Virus record (IMG/VR): IMGVR_UViG_3300022758_000450
Origin: a virus
Lineage: Duplodnaviria; Heunggongvirae; Uroviricota; Caudoviricetes
Strand: one strand, 5' to 3'
Length of the DNA stretch: 5,360 nucleotides
Shown here: one piece after another, positions 417 to 5,360 of the stretch
Position numbering within the stretch: position 1 is the first letter of the stretch
Layout: every line of letters starts with the position of its first letter
Notes under the pieces: model-generated
What the model saw: the letters and a program-made list of their open reading frames with translations, nothing else
Told to the model about the DNA's origin: nothing
Database searches by the model: none
Program-made: the position numbers and the translations under genes

Positions 417-540
417 TTTGTTCTCCACGTATATGCACTGCACCGCGCTGAATTCGGGTAAAAGGAAGTCCTCACCGTCCGGCGATTATTGAGTCAATTA
501 CATTTCCATAAATGCCCCCGTAGGGGCGGTTAGTTTCTCC

Positions 541-629
541 ACAAAACAGAGAAGAACACCTGCGGTGGCTGCCGCCCGGATGGATTGGGTTATGAGCCCG
601 TCGTCCGGTGATGCTCTTCTCTGTTTTGT
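541..629. repeat. Perfect 15-bp inverted repeat (ACAAAACAGAGAAGA / TCTTCTCTGTTTTGT) flanking a 59-bp GC-rich core; function unknown
   Basis: Arms 541-555 and 615-629 are exact reverse complements. Lies in a GC-rich stretch (about 472-900) where the track shows only mutually overlapping, low-complexity ORFs on both strands. A GC hairpin (514-527) lies just to the left. Confidence 0.5.
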
Positions 630-929
630 AAAAAGGACGATACCAGCCGGAAGCAAGGGTACAAACTGGTACCGCCAGGACTACACACAGCATAAAGTTG
701 TGGTGCCGGGTGCCTCCCGGTGCCTGGCGAAGGTTGCACACCAGACGGGTGGGTATCCACAGAAGGTCGACTGTCAGCCTCAACCTTAACCCGCGTGCGC
801 TGAGCCGCATTCACCACAACGCTAAGGATTCTCTTTGGTTGAAAATACTTAGCTGTTATGTGCCTGTCTTTTCACCACTTCAGGCTCGGTGGTATCCTTT
901 TAAGCCCGTATACATAAAAGGAAAATCAA

Positions 930-1175
930 ATGACTTTTGATGAAAAAGAACTTGATAATGCAATTAATAAAATCATCGTAACGTCGCTCTTTTCCTGTCT
1001 CAGCGACACTCAGCAGAAACAGTTCTACGAATCGGCTTTCAACATGATCGAGCGTTGTTGTTTCTGCGATGCCGACGAGTTACCTGAAAAAATCAGGAAA
1101 CAGTTGGCTGATGCTCTTCGAGTGCGACTTTCTGACCAATTTTCTGAAATGTGCTCTCCGAATTTGGACAAATAG
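930..1175 (+). CDS. Hypothetical small protein (81 aa)
   Basis: ATG at 930 preceded by AAAGGA (917-922) at about 7 nt spacing. Translation is charged with balanced composition and 4 Cys. 3' end overlaps the convergent ORF 1093..1410 by 83 nt. Confidence 0.5.
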   Translation: MTFDEKELDNAINKIIVTSLFSCLSDTQQKQFYESAFNMIERCCFCDADELPEKIRKQLADALRVRLSDQFSEMCSPNLDK

Positions 1176-1410
1176 AAAAGGACCATTTCCATTCAGGGTC
1201 TGATGGAAATACTTCAGCCTGTTCCAAAGCACGGCGTAAAGAGAACACAACTCCAGCCATAATCTGATGTTTCCCATTGGTCCAGCTATCGCCGCTCTGA
1301 TCTACAGGGGCGGCTATGTCGTATGACCAAACGACTTCACAGTTATTGTTTAAAATCTGGACTTTCATTTCATACACCTGCTTTAACATGAGTGCATAGT
1401 GGCACAACAT
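1093..1410 (-). CDS. Hypothetical protein (105 aa, or 91 aa from internal ATG at 1368); first ORF downstream of the putative leftward early promoter
   Basis: Track ORF. ATG at 1410 lacks a clear SD; internal ATG at 1368 has AGGTG 6 nt upstream. Not arginine-rich, so not recognisably N-like. Overlaps the + strand ORF 930..1175 at the 3' end, so one of the two may be spurious. Confidence 0.4.
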   Translation of the reverse strand: MLCHYALMLKQVYEMKVQILNNNCEVVWSYDIAAPVDQSGDSWTNGKHQIMAGVVFSLRRALEQAEVFPSDPEWKWSFSICPNSESTFQKIGQKVALEEHQPTVS

Positions 1411-1497
1411 GACTCAACGAATCACCCTAGACTTTATATGCCCCAGGTGGCTACTTCGTGGGCGTCCTGCCTGTCCGTGATAGCTTACATTATGTTG

Positions 1498-1510
1498 CTA
1501 CTTAAAGTAG
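1498..1510. promoter_or_regulatory. OL-like operator: 13-bp palindrome CTACTT-A-AAGTAG matching the OR operators in 12 of 13 positions
   Basis: Perfect dyad around a central A. Its reverse complement CTACTTTAAGTAG differs by 1 nt from the twice-repeated CTATTTTAAGTAG at 3728-3763. On the minus strand it is followed directly by a near-consensus -10 (CATAAT, plus coordinates 1489-1494) upstream of the ORF starting at 1410. The -35 is weak. Confidence 0.55.
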
Positions 1511-1517
1511 TAAAAAT

Positions 1518-1546
1518 CAACAACAAAAAGTAGATATTTGTTGTTG
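1518..1546. repeat. 10-bp perfect inverted repeat (CAACAACAAA / TTTGTTGTTG) with a 9-bp spacer containing an AAGTAG operator half-site
   Basis: Arms 1518-1527 and 1537-1546 are exact reverse complements. The half-site AAGTAG (1528-1533) sits 23 bp from the matching half of the 1498-1510 operator, the same phasing as the two OR operators. Confidence 0.4.
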
Positions 1547-1691
1547 TCTATGATTTTTCTATAATTAATTGAAAGTTAAATGTTTTTGCTGATTTACTAT
1601 GCTGTAAACTGAAAATATCGCACGAAGTTGGAGTAGGTATTGAGCATAGTGAATTATGAGGAGGGAGTTTTTTATGAGATTAATCAGGGAG

Positions 1692-1724
1692 AAAGAAGAG
1701 TAAAGCCCGGTTATGCGGCCGGGC
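1692..1724 (-). terminator. Intrinsic terminator ending the minus-strand cI-side cassette
   Basis: On the minus strand, immediately after the stop at 1732-1734: GC stem GCCCGG/CCGGGC (1705-1710 with 1719-1724), 8-nt loop, then T-rich tract TTTACTCTTCTTTC (plus coordinates 1692-1704). Confidence 0.6.
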
Positions 1725-1731
1725 ACATGCA

Positions 1732-1983
1732 TTACTTTGTAAGTTCTAGAACTCGTTGAGCCAGCCCTTTAAATTGTTCGTTAAAGGCGTCTCTGCTTGA
1801 TTTCATTGTATTTAAGGCATGCCCAAATTGCCCTGAATCGCGAATTTGCTGATCACTGATGGAGAAAACAGGTGTCGCTAGTTGTTGGCTTATTGCGATT
1901 AATGAGTTGAAATCGGAAATATGCGCAAGATCATAGGCTGATAAATCTCCACTGACTGTTGTTTTGTTAATTGCATGTTGCAC
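1732..1983 (-). CDS. Hypothetical small protein (83 aa), distal gene of the ParA-like cassette
   Basis: Track ORF with GTG start at 1983, placed 1 nt after the TAA (1985-1987) that closes the ParA-like reading frame, which suggests coupled translation. Followed by the terminator. No recognisable motif. Confidence 0.5.
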   Translation of the reverse strand: MQHAINKTTVSGDLSAYDLAHISDFNSLIAISQQLATPVFSISDQQIRDSGQFGHALNTMKSSRDAFNEQFKGLAQRVLELTK

Positions 1984-1984
1984 T

Positions 1985-2815
1985 TTATCTCGTGGAATTA
2001 TGCAGGTAATTTTTTTCTAGATTTGGCACTAAGATCGAATCAACAGCATCACGGATAGCTGCCATCCATTTTTCGAAAGATTTTACAGGTGCTCCTTTAC
2101 GCGGCCTGTATCTCTGCTGAATCATACCTAGAAACTGCGGTGCATTTTTTAATTGATTGTGAAGAGTTACCATCATTATTTTCTTTAAATAATGCTAATT
2201 CTTTGTGCCAGCGAGGTATATTTTTTTGAGAGAGAGCGAATTGCTTGCCAGCAAAAAAAGTCTGGAGCTACAGGTACGATAAAATAGTCACTTGACATGA
2301 GAACTACTTCATTTAAACCTCCAACATTAGGGCTGAGATCATAAAGAATGTAATCAATATTATTCTTCATGGCGATTAGCTGTAATATTTTTTGGCAGGT
2401 TCCCTGGTATATTTTCTTGTAGCAGGAATACCAGCAGCAATTTTTTAGAGAAACACTTATCTGTGAATCTAAGTCCGAAACATCTAAATGTCCGGGAAGA
2501 AGCAGAAGGTTTTTCATGCAGTGTAGGGTGTAATTTTCCCGTTTCTTTTTCAAGGTATGCTTCAGGTTGTCCGCCATTAATCAAATATTCTACAATAGGT
2601 CCAAGAGTTAAGTTATCTCTGCTAGAATAAAAAGAATCTAAACCCTCATCAATCTTTTCATAGCCAAGAACCATTCCTGTTAGATTACATTGCGAATCAA
2701 GGTCAACCATCAATACTTTCTTGCCTTCATCCGCAAGTGCCCATCCAAGATTGAAGGTTGTTGTGGTTTTACTTACCCCACCTTTATGATTAAAAAAACA
2801 AATTGATTTTGTCAT
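1985..2815 (-). pseudogene. ParA/Soj/MinD-family P-loop ATPase gene, reading frame broken twice (+1 then -1)
   Basis: Track ORF 2360..2815 gives the N-terminus with deviant Walker A (MTKSICFFNHKGGVSKTTTTFNLGWALADEGKKVLMVDLDSQ). ORF 2185..2577, in another frame, gives the Walker B region (IDYILYDLSPNVGGLNEVVLMSSDYFIVPVAPDFF), closely matching Soj YDYIIIDSPPALGPL...IIPIQCEFF. ORF 1985..2176 is back in the first frame and resembles a ParA C-terminal region. Total span is about 277 codons, typical for Soj-type ParA. AAGGA lies 9 nt upstream of the ATG at 2815. Confidence 0.7.
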
Positions 2816-2984
2816 GTTTCTCTATCCTTTCGACCCCCAGCATATTGTAATTTACGCTGGGTGATTATTTTATATTGTTAATAATAATGTTTAATAAAAA
2901 TAAGAGAGTAAAACAACTATTAGTAATAGCACTTGCTTGCTAAATATTATTTTTTACCTTTAGTTCTATAGTCTAAACGAAGAA

Positions 2985-3746
2985 CTAAAGCCGGTTGTAT
3001 TTAATTGATTCGTGTATCAATGCTTTGCCCATAACATAAAGTTGATCTTGGGACTTCTCATCAATGTACCATTTCTCATAGGCTGGATTATCCGAAAGAA
3101 CGGCGAGTTTGTTGCCTTGCATTTGTAGACGTTTAACGTGGAACGTCTTACCATAAACGAAAGAGTAAACACCATCAGTTTGGAAGTTGCGAACAGAAAT
3201 GTCGACAAACAGTCGATCTCCGGAAACTAGAGTAGGGGACATGCTGTCGCCATTTACAGTCATAACTTTAATATCATCTTGAGAACGATTACCGAAAAGA
3301 GAACGGGCATGCTCTGTTGTGAACTCAATGGCGTAGAGCACATCAACATAGTCTGAAAGCATATAGGTCCCAGGTCCTGCGCTAACGCTAAGATCCAAAA
3401 CTTCTATCCTGTATACATCGGGTTTTGTTGGATTGGGGATGCTTGCCATTTCCTTACATCCTTCTCTCTCACCAACACCATATTCTAAATATGAAGCTGA
3501 TACCCCCAGAGCCAATGCAAGTTTATTCATGACAGAGGCACGAGGCTTCGCAGCGCCGATTGTGTATCGCCGCGCCATTTCATATGTAACGCCCACAAGA
3601 CTTTTGAGTTGGGTGACAGAAATTCCCTTGTTTGTCATTAGCTCGTTTAGTCTCTTGGCGAAATCTGGATACTTCTGTTCTTCTACCATAGGTAGAAGAT
3701 TACTCGCATCACATACGCTAGTCATTTCTATTTTAAGTAGTTGCAT
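2985..3746 (-). CDS. cI: CI-type phage repressor: N-terminal HTH (XRE family) plus C-terminal LexA-like S24 autopeptidase domain
   Basis: Track ORF. HTH segment FAKRLNELMTNKGISVTQLKSLVGVTYEMARRY; probable Ala-Gly cleavage site in LSVSAGPG; catalytic Ser in VNGDSMSPTL and Lys in HVKRL. Divergent from the cro-like gene with operators between. Start is ambiguous (ATG at 3746, 3725 or 3689); none has an SD, consistent with a leaderless PRM-type transcript. Confidence 0.88.
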   Translation of the reverse strand: MQLLKIEMTSVCDASNLLPMVEEQKYPDFAKRLNELMTNKGISVTQLKSLVGVTYEMARRYTIGAAKPRASVMNKLALALGVSASYLEYGVGEREGCKEMASIPNPTKPDVYRIEVLDLSVSAGPGTYMLSDYVDVLYAIEFTTEHARSLFGNRSQDDIKVMTVNGDSMSPTLVSGDRLFVDISVRNFQTDGVYSFVYGKTFHVKRLQMQGNKLAVLSDNPAYEKWYIDEKSQDQLYVMGKALIHESIKYNRL

Positions 3747-3787
3747 TTTGCTATTTTAAGTAGCATCATCCCTCTGAATTTCAGAGG
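3728..3787. promoter_or_regulatory. OR region: two identical 13-bp operators (3728-3740, 3751-3763) and a perfect 17-bp palindrome (3771-3787) between the divergent cI and cro starts
   Basis: CTATTTTAAGTAG occurs twice with 23-bp centre-to-centre spacing. Each copy is an imperfect dyad (10 of 13) and carries TAAAAT on the minus strand, a -10-like hexamer a few nt from the cI ATG candidates. CCTCTGAA-T-TTCAGAGG (3771-3787) is a perfect palindrome centred 22 bp from operator 2 and overlaps the cro SD. Confidence 0.6.
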
Positions 3788-3795
3788 AGAAAGGT

Positions 3796-4059
3796 ATGTC
3801 ATCTCAAAACTACACAGAGAAAGCAGTAAAAGCTGCGGGAAAATCTTTATCTGAAGTAGCCCGTCACTTTGGTTTTAAGTCCACTCAATCCGTCGCTAAT
3901 TGGGTAATTAACAATCAAGTCCCGTCAGAACGGGTTTTACAACTTTGTGAGTTGGGAAACTGGTCCGTGACCCCTCATGAACTGCGTCCTGATATTTACC
4001 CCAATCCAAATGATGGATTACCTGAGTGCTATTCAAAAGTTAGCGGTTCAGCTGCGTAA
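3796..4059 (+). CDS. cro: Cro-like small HTH regulator (YdaS-type Cro/CI family)
   Basis: ATG at 3796 with GAGGAG (3784-3789) 6 nt upstream. 87-aa protein with HTH segment KSLSEVARHFGFKSTQSVANWV. Divergent from the repressor gene across the operator region. Confidence 0.8.
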   Translation: MSSQNYTEKAVKAAGKSLSEVARHFGFKSTQSVANWVINNQVPSERVLQLCELGNWSVTPHELRPDIYPNPNDGLPECYSKVSGSAA

Positions 4060-4087
4060 ACGTAACCACAGAAACGAGGAGTTAACC

Positions 4088-4645
4088 GTGGGTAAGCATC
4101 ACTGGAAAGTAGAAAAACAGCCTGAGTGGTACGTGAAAGCAGTCAGAAAAACTATCGCAGCGTTGCCGGGGGGTTACGCTGAAGCTGCTGACTGGCTGGA
4201 CGTAACAGAGAACGCATTATTTAACCGCCTTCGTGCCGATGGCGATCAGATTTTCCCGCTGGGATGGGCAATGATTTTGCAACGTGCTGGTGGAACTCAC
4301 TTCATTGCTGACGCTGTGGCGCAGTCTGCAAATGGCATCTTTGTGTCTCTTCCTGACGTCGAGGATGTGGACAATGCCGATATTAACCAGCGTCTGCTGG
4401 AAGTCATTGAACAGATCGGCAGTTATTCCAGACAGATTCGTTCAGCAATTGAAGACGGTGTAGTGGAACCGCATGAGAAGACAGCAATTAACGACGAGCT
4501 GTATCTCTCAATTTCGAAGCTGCAGGAGCATGCAGCACTTGTCTACAAAATTTTTTGCATTTCAGAAAGTAATGACGCCCGCGAGTGTGCAGCTCCGGGC
4601 GTCGTGGCGTCGATTGCTTCTGGTTGTGGAGAAACTAACGCATGA
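4088..4645 (+). CDS. CII-like / YdaT-family early regulator (185 aa from GTG start)
   Basis: Track ORF 3977..4645. Preferred start is GTG at 4088, same frame, with GAGGAG (4076-4081) 6 nt upstream and no overlap with cro. Position (directly after cro, before the replication gene) and size match the YdaS-YdaT arrangement recalled from Rac-type prophages. Stop TGA overlaps the next ATG (ATGA at 4642-4645). Confidence 0.65.
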
Positions 4646-4980
4646 ACAGTTTAACAACACACTACCGTCGCTCGCAACTGATTGCGCTTCCTGTACCGGG
4701 TGGAAAAGCGAAGGTGGAATATTGCTATGCAGTAAATGTACCAGGTGACAGGGAAATTGTAACCCACAGCTTTGCAGAGTGGGCTGTGGGGGATTTCAAC
4801 CGGCAGAAGGAGACAGTCCTTTGCGACAAGTTAACCGCTGGTTCAAAGATCACTACGGAGTGCCCGTCAGAGTCATTCGTTGGGAGCCGGAAACACAACG
4901 GGTTATCTACCTCCGCGAAGGTTATGAGCATGAATGCTTCAGTCCGCTCGAACAGTTTCGTCGTAAATTCAGGGAAATAG
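4642..4980 (+). CDS. Hypothetical small protein; reading frame ambiguous (alternative frame 4779..5000), possibly frameshifted
   Basis: ATG at 4642 is coupled to the upstream stop (ATGA), with GGAG about 11 nt upstream. The first ~55 residues look protein-like, but the C-terminal third is S/T/N-rich. The overlapping frame 4779..5000 (GTG start, no SD) looks more protein-like downstream of about 4800 and ends 8 nt past the O-like ATG. Confidence 0.35.
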
Positions 4981-4989
4981 AGGTCGGTC

Positions 4990-5360
4990 ATGAGCACTAA
5001 ATTAACCGGCTATGTATGGGATGGTTGCGCAGCGTCAGGCATGAAATTATCCAGCGTGGCAATTATGGCCCGCCTGGCTGATTTCAGTAATGACGAAGGT
5101 GTGTGCTGGCCATCAATTGAAACCATTGCCCGTCAGATTGGCGCGGGGATGAGTACCGTCAGGACGGCTATCGCACGGCTGGAAGCAGAAGGCTGGTTAA
5201 CGCGTAAGGCGCGTCGCCAGGGTAACCGCAATGCGTCGAATGTTTATCAGCTTAACGTTGCGAAGCTTCAGGCAGCGGCATTTTCTCAACTGTCAGATTC
5301 TGACCCGTCAAAATCTGACGCATCAAAATCTGACCCGTCAAAATTTGATGCGTCGAGTCG
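4990..5360 (+). CDS. Phage replication initiator, O-like, N-terminal HTH DNA-binding domain (5' partial; continues beyond window)
   Basis: ATG at 4990 with AGAGG 6 nt upstream. N-terminus MSTKLTGYVWDGCAASGMKLSSVAIMARLADFSNDEGVCWPSIETIARQIGAGMSTVRTAIARLEAEGWL is the winged-helix N-domain typical of lambdoid prophage replication proteins (recalled as Rac YdaU-like), followed by a repetitive SDPSKSD linker. No stop before the window ends. Confidence 0.85.
   Translation, partial: MSTKLTGYVWDGCAASGMKLSSVAIMARLADFSNDEGVCWPSIETIARQIGAGMSTVRTAIARLEAEGWLTRKARRQGNRNASNVYQLNVAKLQAAAFSQLSDSDPSKSDASKSDPSKFDASS
5299..5360. repeat. Iteron-like 15-bp tandem direct repeats inside the replication initiator gene (candidate origin); array runs off the window
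   Basis: TCTGACCCGTCAAAA (5299-5313), TCTGACGCATCAAAA (5314-5328), TCTGACCCGTCAAAA (5329-5343), then a degenerate TTTGATGCGTCGAGT (5344-5358). Each unit has an internal dyad TGAC-NNN-TCA. Confidence 0.6.

What the first reader, a model, noticed from the sequence alone, without database searches (positions are those of the whole stretch)
1410..2984. AT-rich cassette at the rexAB-equivalent locus: ParA-like ATPase plus small partner ORF
Seen in sequence: the stretch between OL (about 1500) and the cI stop (2985) is visibly AT-rich compared with both flanks. It carries only minus-strand genes co-oriented with cI (ParA/Soj-like ATPase 2815->1985, 83-aa ORF 1983->1732) and ends in an intrinsic terminator. 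Established knowledge: this is where lambda carries rexA-rexB, and the cI-proximal slot is a recognised hotspot for exclusion/defence morons. Inference: this is horizontally acquired cargo. Two hypotheses fit: (a) an exclusion or defence-type module built on a ParA-like NTPase, which as far as I recall is not a described defence family; or (b) a type Ib-like partition pair (small ParA plus small DNA-binding partner), which would imply a phage-plasmid lifestyle. I found no obvious centromere-like iterons flanking it, and the ATPase gene is frame-disrupted, so the system may be inactive here.
Basis: partly seen in the sequence, partly recalled or inferred. Interest (0 to 1): 0.72.

Follow-up and report, generated by a model that had tools for sequence, protein, structure and literature searches.

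The report
Lone ParA-like prophage gene, probable defence
The AT-rich stretch next to the prophage repressor holds one ParA-type ATPase gene, not an ATPase plus a partner; it is broken here by seven one-base insertions and probably belongs to a little-studied kind of single-gene anti-phage defence.

Summary
The AT-rich cassette between OL and cI is real: 36.5% GC against about 46-47% in both flanks, minus-strand only, ending in a terminator. It holds one gene, not two. In 109+ complete E. coli genomes the same DNA encodes an intact 358-aa ParA-family protein (WP_000167381). The "83-aa partner ORF" is that protein's C-terminus. The window copy differs only by seven +1 insertions in coding-strand A-runs, with no substitutions. 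Removing them restores the protein exactly, so a sequencing or assembly artefact is likelier than decay.

The partition-pair hypothesis is refuted. No partner is conserved in 59 viral and 79 genomic loci, no flanking iterons were found, carriers are integrated prophages, and plasmids almost never carry it.

The defence hypothesis is supported, but only by comparison:
- Homologues repeatedly follow the repressor in E. coli, Salmonella Gifsy-like, P22-like and Pseudomonas prophages.
- They also sit among known defence genes.
- Distant relatives pair with a HEPN RNase or are fused to protease or Schlafen domains.
- In Gifsy prophages with 94%-identical CI, the same slot holds either this family or GiPD474.

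GiPD474 is a remotely homologous solo ParA-like protein shown in 2025 to block T4, FO1 and Alf5. This family itself is untested and its mechanism is unknown.

The parts
1732..2815 (-). Single ParA/MinD-type ATPase gene. It is 358 aa when intact (WP_000167381). Here it is split into ORFs of 151, 130, 63 and 83 aa by seven inserted bases.
   Evidence: The intact 1077-nt ORF is present in EC93 and IHE3034. Deleting the 7 bases restores an identical protein. Pfam AAA_31 and CbiA match. The AlphaFold model has pTM 0.88 and matches Soj/ParA over the whole length.
1732..1983 (-). The '83-aa ORF' is residues 276-358 of the same ATPase. It contributes strand 293-298 and helices 301-310 and 330-357, and includes the invariant DFNSLIAISQ motif.
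   Evidence: The Foldseek and hmmsearch alignments to Soj and 3pg5 run through this part.
2010..2510 (-). Seven +1 insertions at 2010, 2145, 2221, 2388, 2412, 2441 and 2510. Each lengthens an A-run of the coding strand. This is probably a homopolymer-length artefact.
   Evidence: The variant is absent from three public collections and from the record of called products.
1705..1724 (-). Intrinsic-terminator-like hairpin directly after the ATPase stop codon.
   Evidence: sequence.
1492..1537 (.). OL-like operator region (CTACTTAAAGTAG at 1498-1510), an inverted copy of the OR operators.
   Evidence: Inverted repeats I1 and I4.
2816..2984 (-). AT-rich (27% GC) spacer between the cI stop and the ATPase start. 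It has a hairpin at 2861-2836 just before the Shine-Dalgarno sequence and a -1 change in a T7 run at 2950.
   Evidence: RNA fold z = -3.1, with 0 of 200 shuffles as stable. Promoter-like hits are no more frequent than chance.
2985..3746 (-). cI-like repressor (HTH_3 plus Peptidase_S24). RefSeq calls the 234-aa form, 2985-3689.
3724..3769 (.). OR-like operators: two direct copies of TT(T/G)CTATTTTAAGTAG.
   Evidence: Direct repeat D2 and inverted repeat I1.
3796..4059 (+). Cro-like regulator (YdaS family), divergent from cI.

Best explanation
What is shown:
- The cassette is one gene for a 358-aa ParA/MinD-type ATPase that travels with this cI allele inside the prophage immunity region.
- It has a complete deviant Walker A motif (K11-GGVS-K16-TT), a Walker A'/switch I motif (D38, D40) and a Walker B motif (D158).
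- It has no partner gene.

What is inferred:
- It is probably transcribed with or just after the repressor in lysogens.
- It most likely acts as a stand-alone anti-phage defence protein of the kind shown experimentally for the remotely homologous GiPD474.
- By analogy with ParA/Soj/MinD proteins, ATP binding would drive a sandwich dimer that binds DNA or a phage-made protein. This would block a post-adsorption step of the superinfecting phage, such as replication or packaging.
- The ATPase would be the switch. In distant relatives this switch is wired to a HEPN RNase, a C48-type protease or a Schlafen domain.
- In the solo prophage form the ATPase would be sensor and effector in one, or would use a host factor.

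In this window the gene reads as broken by seven A-run insertions, which are more likely sequence errors than real decay.
For: One gene, intact elsewhere.

ParA fold and motifs.

Position directly after the repressor recurs in:
- E. coli (3693 index blocks carry this cI, and all 10 loci shown have cI followed by the ParA-like gene).
- A Pseudomonas capeferrum lambdoid prophage.
- The P22-like phages ST160 and SE1, between c2 and gp24.
- Salmonella Gifsy-like prophages.
- An Acinetobacter prophage, after an Arc-like regulator.

Among 96 upstream ORFs from 59 viral loci, the commonest Pfam families are HTH_3, YdaS/Cro, HTH_31, Peptidase_S24, Phage_CI_repr and P22_Cro.

Slot equivalence with a tested defence gene:
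- Gifsy CI repressors that are 94% identical are followed either by GiPD474 or by a 73%-identical member of this family.
- GiPD474 gives about 5-log protection against FO1, Alf5 and T4, including in E. coli K-12 (PMC12724215).
- GiPD474 is homologous over the full length: BLASTP 22% identity, E = 1e-13; hhalign 98.3% probability.

Defence neighbourhoods:
- The M. gigas island has HicAB, DarTG and a type I R-M system.
- Neighbours within two genes in 31 species representatives hit MADS, AriA, NsnB, IetA, MzaA, AbiLi, RmrA, DRT UG29, a type IIG R-M enzyme and PDC-S43.

Effector links:
- 15 of 79 genomic loci have a HEPN_RiboL-PSP gene a few nt (0-11 in 13 of them) downstream. This is the ParA/Soj-HEPN dyad predicted as a conflict system in PMC3710099.
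- Fusions to Peptidase_C48/RickCE and to Schlafen AlbA_2 occur.
Against: - No member of this particular family has been tested. The literature searches found only GiPD474.
- Identity to GiPD474 is only 22%, so function cannot simply be transferred.
- PADLOC models match only the P-loop (PDC-M28B, 38 residues).
- Many species representatives have ordinary housekeeping neighbours.
- The protein is unusually conserved for a defence gene: 60-65% identity across Gamma-, Beta- and Deltaproteobacteria, and no substitutions among 11 E. coli copies.
- The proposed mechanism is an analogy, not an observation.
- Promoter-like sites in the spacer are no more frequent than chance, so expression in lysogens is not shown here.
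Confidence: 0.6

Rival explanations
1. Type Ib-like partition module (small ParA plus small centromere-binding partner) that keeps the phage as a plasmid prophage.
For: - The protein belongs to the ParA superfamily. PHROG 164 is labelled 'ParA-like partition protein' and phage records carry the same label.
- In the window, an 83-aa ORF follows the ATPase fragments.
Against: - The 83-aa ORF is the C-terminus of the same protein and lies inside the predicted fold.
- No neighbour is conserved across 33 viral lineages or among the close genomic relatives.
- No direct-repeat iterons flank the gene.
- The hosts are integrated prophages with integrases at tRNA genes. ST160 is an integrating P22-like phage.
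- None of the 158 E. coli copies is on a plasmid, and only 23 of 72,556 plasmid records match.
- The NCBIfam partition equivalogs score far below their cut-offs (55.8 against 180 bits).
Confidence: 0.03
2. A lysogeny or host-physiology regulator. In this reading a Soj-like ATPase, expressed with cI, modulates prophage induction, host replication initiation or cell division rather than attacking other phages.
For: - The gene is constantly adjacent to the cI/cro/cII switch.
- Depositors annotated homologues as 'regulatory protein' in ST160 and Pf1.
- The very strong conservation would fit an interaction with a conserved host target.
- Established knowledge: B. subtilis Soj regulates DnaA.
Against: - It is dispensable for the prophage type. 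The same backbone with another immunity allele lacks it, and Gifsy prophages swap it for GiPD474 or, according to PMC12724215, for remAIN.
- It also occurs outside phages, in islands with TA, DarTG and R-M systems and next to many defence genes.
- Distant relatives are coupled to HEPN, protease or Schlafen effector-type domains.
Confidence: 0.15
3. An orphan 'antitoxin-like' ATPase derived from the ParA/Soj-HEPN dyad. The prophage would carry it to neutralise HEPN toxins, giving an anti-defence or anti-addiction role.
For: - Distant relatives form ParA-HEPN dyads.
- In those dyads the ATPase was predicted to be the antitoxin (PMC3710099).
- The prophage form lacks the HEPN gene.
Against: - No HEPN partner occurs near any relative at 42% identity or above.
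- The dyad branch is only 38-40% identical and lies in other phyla.
- The solo homologue GiPD474 confers defence on its own (PMC12724215).
Confidence: 0.07
4. The gene in this window is a real, decayed pseudogene, inactivated in this host, rather than a mis-sequenced intact gene.
For: - There are seven frame disruptions.
- Another frameshift allele exists in other assemblies: a -1 change in a T7 run in L004 and L008.
- yfdR in the same window is also disrupted by small insertions.
- The insertions cluster significantly on coding-strand A-runs of this ORF (Fisher p = 0.003), which random error does not obviously predict.
Against: - There are seven indels but no substitutions in 1077 nt.
- All seven are +1 changes in homopolymers.
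- One inactivating change would suffice under selection.
- The variant occurs in none of the 155 E. coli genomes that carry the cassette and in none of three public contig collections.
- The rest of the immunity region (2985-5356) has no indels against EC93.
Confidence: 0.3

Closest known systems
GiPD474 (Gifsy-1 encoded phage defence protein of S. Typhimurium 4/74; Bosma, Noireaux & Bowden 2025, PMC12724215)
   Same: - It is a single gene of about 360 aa with a ParA/MinD/Soj-like AAA_31 ATPase carrying family-specific insertions and a C-terminal extension.
- It sits directly after the prophage repressor in the immunity region.
- It is homologous along the full length (hhalign 98.3%, 298 columns).
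- It occupies the same slot after 94%-identical Gifsy CI repressors.
   Different: - Identity is only 22%.
- The Walker A motif is KGGVGKT rather than KGGVSKT, and GiPD474 has about 17 extra N-terminal residues.
- GiPD474 has been tested, giving about 5-log protection against FO1, Alf5 and T4. This family has not been tested.
- The paper's primers do not match the Salmonella loci of this family.
Chromosomal and plasmid ParA/Soj/McdA/MinD ATPases (for example H. pylori Soj 8jmj, T. thermophilus Soj 2bek)
   Same: - The fold is the same (Foldseek E = 1e-12, TM-score 0.77 on the target).
- It has the deviant Walker A motif with the signature lysine, switch I and the Walker B motif.
   Different: - It is about 100 residues longer through insertions.
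- Sequence profiles match canonical Soj only over the P-loop, residues 3-46.
- There is no ParB, MinE or other partner gene, no centromere, and it is not on plasmids.
ParA/Soj-HEPN (MAE_18760 / RiboL-PSP) gene dyad predicted by Anantharaman et al. 2013 (PMC3710099)
   Same: Relatives at 38-40% identity, of the same length, are followed after about 5 nt by a HEPN_RiboL-PSP gene in 15 of 79 loci.
   Different: The window and all relatives at 42% identity or above lack the HEPN gene. The dyad itself is only a prediction.
DIP2308 of Corynebacterium diphtheriae (PDB 3pg5, structural-genomics target of unknown function)
   Same: It is the best sequence match among solved structures: 101 bits, aligned over residues 3-322, with similar length (361 aa). 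It is also a top Foldseek hit.
   Different: No function is known, so it adds a structure but no mechanism.
Lambda RexAB, BstA of BTP1 and remAIN of Gifsy-1 (other cargo of the repressor-proximal slot)
   Same: They share the position next to the repressor and expression from the prophage. All are exclusion or defence functions (PMC8585504, PMC12724215, and established knowledge of lambda).
   Different: There is no sequence or fold relationship. No RexA, RexB or BstA model was matched in PADLOC.

Membership tests
ParA/MinD (SIMIBI) deviant Walker A ATPases | Deviant Walker A motif KGGxxK[ST] with the N-terminal signature lysine | tested here: met
   The sequence is K11-G-G-V-S-K16-T-T. K11, G12, G13, K16, T17 and T18 are invariant in 40 homologues.
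ParA/MinD (SIMIBI) deviant Walker A ATPases | Walker A'/switch I aspartates and the Walker B aspartate | tested here: met
   D38 and D40 (VDLDSQCNL) and D158 (LYDLSPN) are invariant.
ParA/MinD (SIMIBI) deviant Walker A ATPases | ParA/Soj fold over the whole protein | tested here: met
   The model has pTM 0.88. Soj, ParA, McdA and MinD are the top hits, with alignments of about 355 columns.
Type Ib plasmid or phage-plasmid partition system | Adjacent gene for a centromere-binding partner (ParB/ParG-like RHH or HTH protein) | tested here: not met
   The candidate 83-aa ORF is the ATPase C-terminus. No neighbour is conserved with close homologues in 59 viral and 79 genomic loci.
Type Ib plasmid or phage-plasmid partition system | Centromere-like repeats (parS or iterons) next to the operon | tested here: not met
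   Only chance-level two-copy repeats and the OL/OR operators were found in 1380-3900.
Type Ib plasmid or phage-plasmid partition system | Carried by an extrachromosomal replicon | tested here: not met
   All 158 E. coli places are chromosomal. The prophages have integrases at tRNA genes. Only 23 of 72,556 plasmid records match.
GiPD474-type single-gene prophage defence | Solo ParA-like ATPase of about 360 aa directly after the repressor in a prophage immunity region | tested here: met
   The same slot is used after 94%-identical Gifsy CI repressors.
GiPD474-type single-gene prophage defence | Sequence membership in the GiPD474 family | tested here: inconclusive
   Homology is full-length but remote: 22% identity at E = 1e-13, and hhalign 98.3%. 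This points to a sister family rather than the same family.
GiPD474-type single-gene prophage defence | Reduces plating of phages when expressed alone | not testable with these tools
   This needs plaque assays with an intact copy.
ParA/Soj-HEPN dyad (PMC3710099) | HEPN (MAE_18760 / RiboL-PSP) gene immediately downstream of the ATPase | tested here: not met
   Downstream of the stop codon lie a terminator and OL. The HEPN gene is absent from relatives at 42% identity or above. It is present only in the 38-40% identity branch.
PADLOC candidate system PDC-M28 | Full-length match to the PDC-M28B model | tested here: not met
   Only residues 3-40, the P-loop, match, at 33.5 bits.
Lambda RexAB | Homology to RexA or RexB | tested here: not met
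   No Rex model was hit in PADLOC or Pfam. The equivalence is positional only.

The most novel reading that the evidence does not exclude
This 358-aa protein may represent a second, very widespread family of stand-alone ParA-type antiphage ATPases. It was found in at least 554 species representatives, from Proteobacteria to Chloroflexota, Cyanobacteria and Bacillota. On this reading it protects without any nuclease, RNase or membrane effector, for example through ATP-driven binding to phage DNA or a phage protein. It would be the stripped-down core of a modular ParA-switch immune family whose other members carry HEPN, C48-protease or Schlafen effectors.
Probability: 0.35. Interest if true: 0.65.

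Novelty: new variant of a known kind. Interest (0 to 1): 0.45.

Why it matters
ParA/MinD ATPases are textbook positioning machines for DNA and protein cargo. Only one solo ParA-like protein, GiPD474, has so far been shown to stop phages, and its mechanism is unknown.

A second, remotely related family would make the class general:
- It fills the same repressor-proximal slot in E. coli, Salmonella, P22-like and Pseudomonas prophages.
- It is linked by descent to ParA-HEPN dyads and to protease and Schlafen fusions.

This would also give a comparative handle on the mechanism, because one can ask which parts are shared and which effectors are optional.

The family is carried by about 3% of complete E. 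coli genomes, including ExPEC and APEC strains. It is missed by PADLOC (v2.0.0, 2023), so it could matter for predicting phage susceptibility.

For this window in particular, the practical lesson is that the two-gene reading and the 'inactive' reading both stem from homopolymer frameshifts that need checking against raw reads.

Tried and rejected
- I looked up the frameshifted 151-aa product as a called gene. It is not on record.
- I searched an exact 47-mer spanning two frameshift sites in genome contigs, viral contigs and metagenome contigs. There were no matches, so the source of the window was not identified.
- I tested whether the Salmonella homologue P0010 is GiPD474 by searching the paper's knock-out and cloning primers in L021-L024. 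None matched. GiPD474 was then recovered separately through a primer search and proved to be a different, remotely related protein.
- PADLOC and NCBIfam gave no meaningful family for the ATPase.
- Literature searches for ParA-like defence, immunity-region hotspots, AAA_31 and RiboL-PSP gave nothing beyond GiPD474 and the 2013 HEPN survey. The BstA paper does not mention ParA-like genes.
- The promoter scan of the cI-ATPase spacer gave hits no more frequent than chance, so it is not settled whether the gene has its own promoter or is read through from cI.
- Rfam found nothing in the cassette.
- I considered transcriptional slippage, a general mutator background and selection against a toxic gene as explanations for the seven insertions. 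I rejected all three. Slippage does not alter DNA. A mutator would also give substitutions and would hit other runs. Selection needs only one hit.
Full report
**The observation**

Window 1410-2984 is 36.5% GC. The flanks are 46.3% (1-1409) and 46.8% (2985-5360).

The region lies between a cI-like repressor (2985-3746, minus strand; HTH_3 plus Peptidase_S24) and an OL-like operator. That operator is CTACTTAAAGTAG at 1498-1510, the inverted counterpart of two OR copies at 3725-3763.

A terminator-like hairpin (1724-1705, minus strand) follows the last stop codon. This is the position where lambda carries rexAB.

**One gene, not two**

The same DNA is present in 155 of 5426 complete E. coli genomes, always on the chromosome. 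In 109 of them it covers at least 80% of the query.

In EC93 and IHE3034 it is annotated as a single 1077-nt gene for a 358-aa 'ParA family protein', WP_000167381. The gene sits directly after the same repressor, in CPS-53/SfIV-like prophages integrated at tRNA genes.

The three-way alignment shows that the window ORFs of 151, 130, 63 and 83 aa are consecutive pieces of this one gene. The '83-aa partner' is residues 276-358.

In an AlphaFold model built from 40 homologues (pTM 0.88, mean pLDDT 84.6), those residues supply a strand (293-298) and helices (301-310, 330-357) of one compact domain.

Foldseek aligns the whole protein to Soj, ParA, McdA and MinD structures (8jmj_A, E = 1e-12, target TM-score 0.77).

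The segment also contains the invariant DFNSLIAISQ...P motif. By my reading, this corresponds to the conserved C-terminal 'IPR..v.l.eA...g.Pv' element of ParA proteins.

**The frame disruptions**

Against EC93 the ORF differs only by seven single-base insertions, at window 2010, 2145, 2221, 2388, 2412, 2441 and 2510.

- Each lengthens an A-run of the coding strand by one base.
- There is not one substitution in 1077 nt.
- Deleting the seven bases gives a protein identical to WP_000167381.
- The only other indel in the 3.9 kb that aligns with EC93 is a -1 change in a T7 run at 2950, and 2985-5356 has none.

The variant was not found elsewhere:

- It is absent from the 155 E. coli genomes that carry the cassette.
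- Its 151-aa product is not on record as a called gene.
- A 47-mer covering two of the sites has no exact match in the genome, viral or metagenome collections.

Seven same-direction homopolymer changes without any substitution are best explained as sequencing or assembly error. A second patch of ten extra bases garbles the 3' end of yfdR (window 11 and 115-160), which also suggests a low-quality source.

One aspect remains unexplained. The hits are concentrated on coding-strand A-runs of this ORF: 5 of 7 runs of length 5 or more, against 1 of 17 for all other runs (Fisher p = 0.003). Two A7 runs on the plus strand are untouched.

I put real decay at about 0.3. A different frameshift allele, a -1 change in a T7 run, does occur in two other assemblies (L004, L008).

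**What the protein is**

- Pfam gives AAA_31 (2e-29) and CbiA. PHROG 164 matches over the full length.
- No NCBIfam equivalog comes near its cut-off.
- PADLOC matches only the P-loop.
- The catalytic set is complete and invariant across 40 homologues: K11, G12, G13, K16, T17, T18, D38, D40 and D158.
- A profile of the family matches canonical Soj only over residues 3-46. It matches the 361-aa uncharacterised protein DIP2308 (PDB 3pg5) over residues 3-322 at 101 bits.

It therefore belongs to an 'extended' ParA clade rather than to the partition ATPases proper.

**Distribution**

- More than 5000 proteins match at E <= 1e-5. Full-length relatives at 60-65% identity occur in Acinetobacter, Pseudomonas, Limnohabitans, Chromobacterium, Megalodesulfovibrio, Klebsiella, Mannheimia and Aeromonas.
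- In a library clustered at 50% identity, 127 clusters match at E <= 1e-30 and 1508 at E <= 1e-10.
- At least 554 species representatives encode a relative. They include Bacillota, Cyanobacteria, Chloroflexota, Acidobacteriota and Bacteroidota.
- Among 11 E. coli genomes the ORF has no substitutions, although IHE3034 differs from the window at 50 positions in the flanking DNA.

**The partition hypothesis fails**

- In 59 viral-contig loci representing 33 lineages (80% identity), no neighbouring protein family accompanies the gene in more than 6 lineages. That one family is the cI/cro HTH family.
- Among 79 genomic loci, the close relatives have no shared neighbour either.
- No iterons flank the gene.
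- Carriers are integrated prophages.
- Only 23 of 72,556 plasmid records have a relative, and one of those is a mislabelled chromosome.

**The defence hypothesis is supported by four lines of comparative evidence**

(i) Position. The gene follows the repressor in several unrelated prophage types:

- E. coli prophages with this cI. The cI is listed in 3693 index blocks, and every locus shown has cI followed by the ParA-like gene.
- A Pseudomonas capeferrum lambdoid prophage.
- P22-like phages ST160, SE1 and ST-32, between c2 and the gp24 antiterminator.
- Salmonella Gifsy-like prophages.
- An Acinetobacter prophage, where it follows an Arc-like regulator.

The commonest Pfam families among the two nearest upstream ORFs of the viral loci are HTH_3 (17), YdaS/Cro (10), HTH_31 (10), Peptidase_S24 (9), Phage_CI_repr (5) and P22_Cro (5). 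A prophage with the same left arm but another repressor lacks the gene (L013).

(ii) Company.

- In Megalodesulfovibrio gigas the gene lies in a P4-like island beside HicAB, DarTG and a type I R-M system.
- Among 109 ORFs within two genes of the ATPase in 31 species representatives, PADLOC models hit MADS, AriA, NsnB, IetA, MzaA, AbiLi, RmrA, DRT UG29, a type IIG R-M enzyme and PDC-S43.
- In ST160 the gene between c2 and the ATPase is DUF3024, which is PDC-S43.

(iii) Modular relatives.

- In the 38-40% identity branch, the ATPase is followed after about 5 nt by a HEPN_RiboL-PSP protein of about 200 aa. This occurs in 15 of 79 loci. It is the ParA/Soj-HEPN dyad that Anantharaman et al. predicted to be a toxin-antitoxin-like conflict system (PMC3710099).
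- More distant relatives fuse the ATPase core to a C48/RickCE-type protease or to a Schlafen AlbA_2 domain.

(iv) An experimentally tested neighbour in sequence space.

- Bosma, Noireaux and Bowden (2025, PMC12724215) showed that gipd474 is a single gene for a ParA/MinD/Soj-like AAA_31 ATPase in the Gifsy-1 immunity region.
- It lowers plating of FO1, Alf5 and T4 by about five logs, including in E. coli K-12. It does not affect T7, SP6 or S16. The mechanism is unknown.
- I recovered its sequence through the paper's knock-out primer. It is 361 aa, with GGVGKT at residues 29-34 as the paper states.
- It is homologous to the present protein over the whole length, but only at 22% identity (BLASTP E = 1e-13; hhalign 98.3% probability over 298 columns).
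- Gifsy CI repressors that are 94% identical are followed in one prophage by GiPD474. In another they are followed by a protein 73% identical to the one studied here. This is a cassette swap at a single slot.

**Mechanism**

Shown: this is a complete ParA-type ATPase with no partner gene, placed in the immunity region.

Inferred: it is expressed in lysogens. The 169-nt spacer has no promoter signal above chance. The spacer folds more stably than all 200 shuffles, with a hairpin just before the Shine-Dalgarno sequence.

Inferred by analogy with the superfamily: ATP-dependent dimerisation through the signature lysine, then binding of DNA or of a phage-made ligand, blocks a post-adsorption step.

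The family-specific, highly conserved but low-confidence loop at 125-140 (KIAAGIPATRNIPGNLP) and the invariant QQRYRPR stretch are candidate interaction surfaces. I give the defence reading 0.6. The specific mechanism is speculative.

**Rival readings**

- A regulator of lysogeny or host physiology: 0.15.
- An orphan antitoxin-like or anti-defence protein: 0.07.
- A partition ATPase: 0.03.

**Comparison with what is known, and novelty**

The protein is a member of the ParA/MinD superfamily. It is not a member of any partition system.

It is a sister of GiPD474, not a member of that family. It is a relative of the ATPase half of the predicted ParA-HEPN dyad, but lacks the HEPN gene.

I rate it a new variant of a known kind, with moderate interest. 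However, the two-gene architecture is an artefact of frameshifts, and the idea is no longer unprecedented.

Noticed in passing
window 2010-2510 and 2950: All seven ORF insertions lengthen coding-strand A-runs. Runs of T (plus strand) of length 5 or more in the ORF are hit 5 times out of 7, against 1 of 17 for all other runs of that length in the 3.9 kb aligned with EC93 (Fisher p = 0.003). Two A7 runs on the plus strand are untouched. The strand and gene clustering is not explained by simple random homopolymer error.
   Followed up: partly
window 11 and 115-160 (3' end of yfdR, minus strand): Ten extra single bases relative to three E. coli relatives are packed into about 50 nt. Not all are in homopolymers. 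They truncate the yfdR (5'-deoxynucleotidase) reading frame, and may be another sign of a low-quality or degraded source.
   Followed up: partly
window 1732-2815 compared with L002-L012: The ATPase ORF has no substitutions among 11 E. coli genomes, although IHE3034 differs from the window at 50 positions in the flanking 2.9 kb. This suggests a recently spread module or unusually strong constraint.
   Followed up: no
L004 and L008, ORF position 553: Two other assemblies share a -1 change in a T7 run that splits the ATPase into 204 and 130 aa. Frameshift alleles (or errors) at homopolymers therefore recur in this AT-rich gene.
   Followed up: partly
L164-L189 (for example L169:7040-7639, L181:7034-7780): In relatives at 38-40% identity from Dehalococcoidia, Acidobacteriota, Cyanobacteria, Poribacteria and others, the ATPase is followed after about 5 nt by a HEPN_RiboL-PSP protein of about 200 aa with an Rx4H motif. 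This matches the ParA/Soj-HEPN dyad predicted in 2013.
   Followed up: partly
P0180, P0183, P0244, P0130, P0216: More distant relatives fuse the ATPase core to a Peptidase_C48/RickCE-like protease, or to Schlafen AlbA_2 plus HATPase_c_4, or carry two ParA-like modules in tandem.
   Followed up: partly
L019:3521-3862 (ST160 orf24) and L110:5418-5756: A DUF3024 protein, which is the PADLOC candidate PDC-S43, sits between the repressor and the ParA-like gene in the P22-like phages ST160 and SE1. It also sits directly upstream of the homologue in Morganella psychrotolerans.
   Followed up: partly
window 2816-2984 (minus strand): The 169-nt, 27% GC spacer between cI and the ATPase folds more stably than all 200 shuffles (z = -3.1). 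A hairpin (2861-2836) lies immediately before the Shine-Dalgarno sequence and could be a regulatory leader.
   Followed up: partly
window 627-842 (minus strand): There is a sub-threshold Rfam match to the sRNA STnc100 (37 bits against a gathering score of 47; E = 1.6e-5) in the left arm, outside the cassette.
   Followed up: no
window 527-1416 compared with L001 3669-6001: The left arm is mosaic. Relative to EC93 the window lacks yfdQ-yfdP and the convergent 173-aa gene next to the ATPase. It carries other sequence at 892-1416 that it shares with prophages of a different immunity type (L013).
   Followed up: partly
window 1538-1704: The 170-nt stretch between the ATPase terminator and OL is very AT-rich (about 30% GC) with strong GC skew. 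Apart from a single substitution in IHE3034 it is identical in EC93 and IHE3034, and no function is assigned.
   Followed up: no
L020:5079-6032 (Pf1 prophage Orf317): A relative at 31% identity occupies the accessory region near the att site of a filamentous Pseudomonas Pf1-type prophage. The family is therefore not restricted to tailed phages.
   Followed up: no
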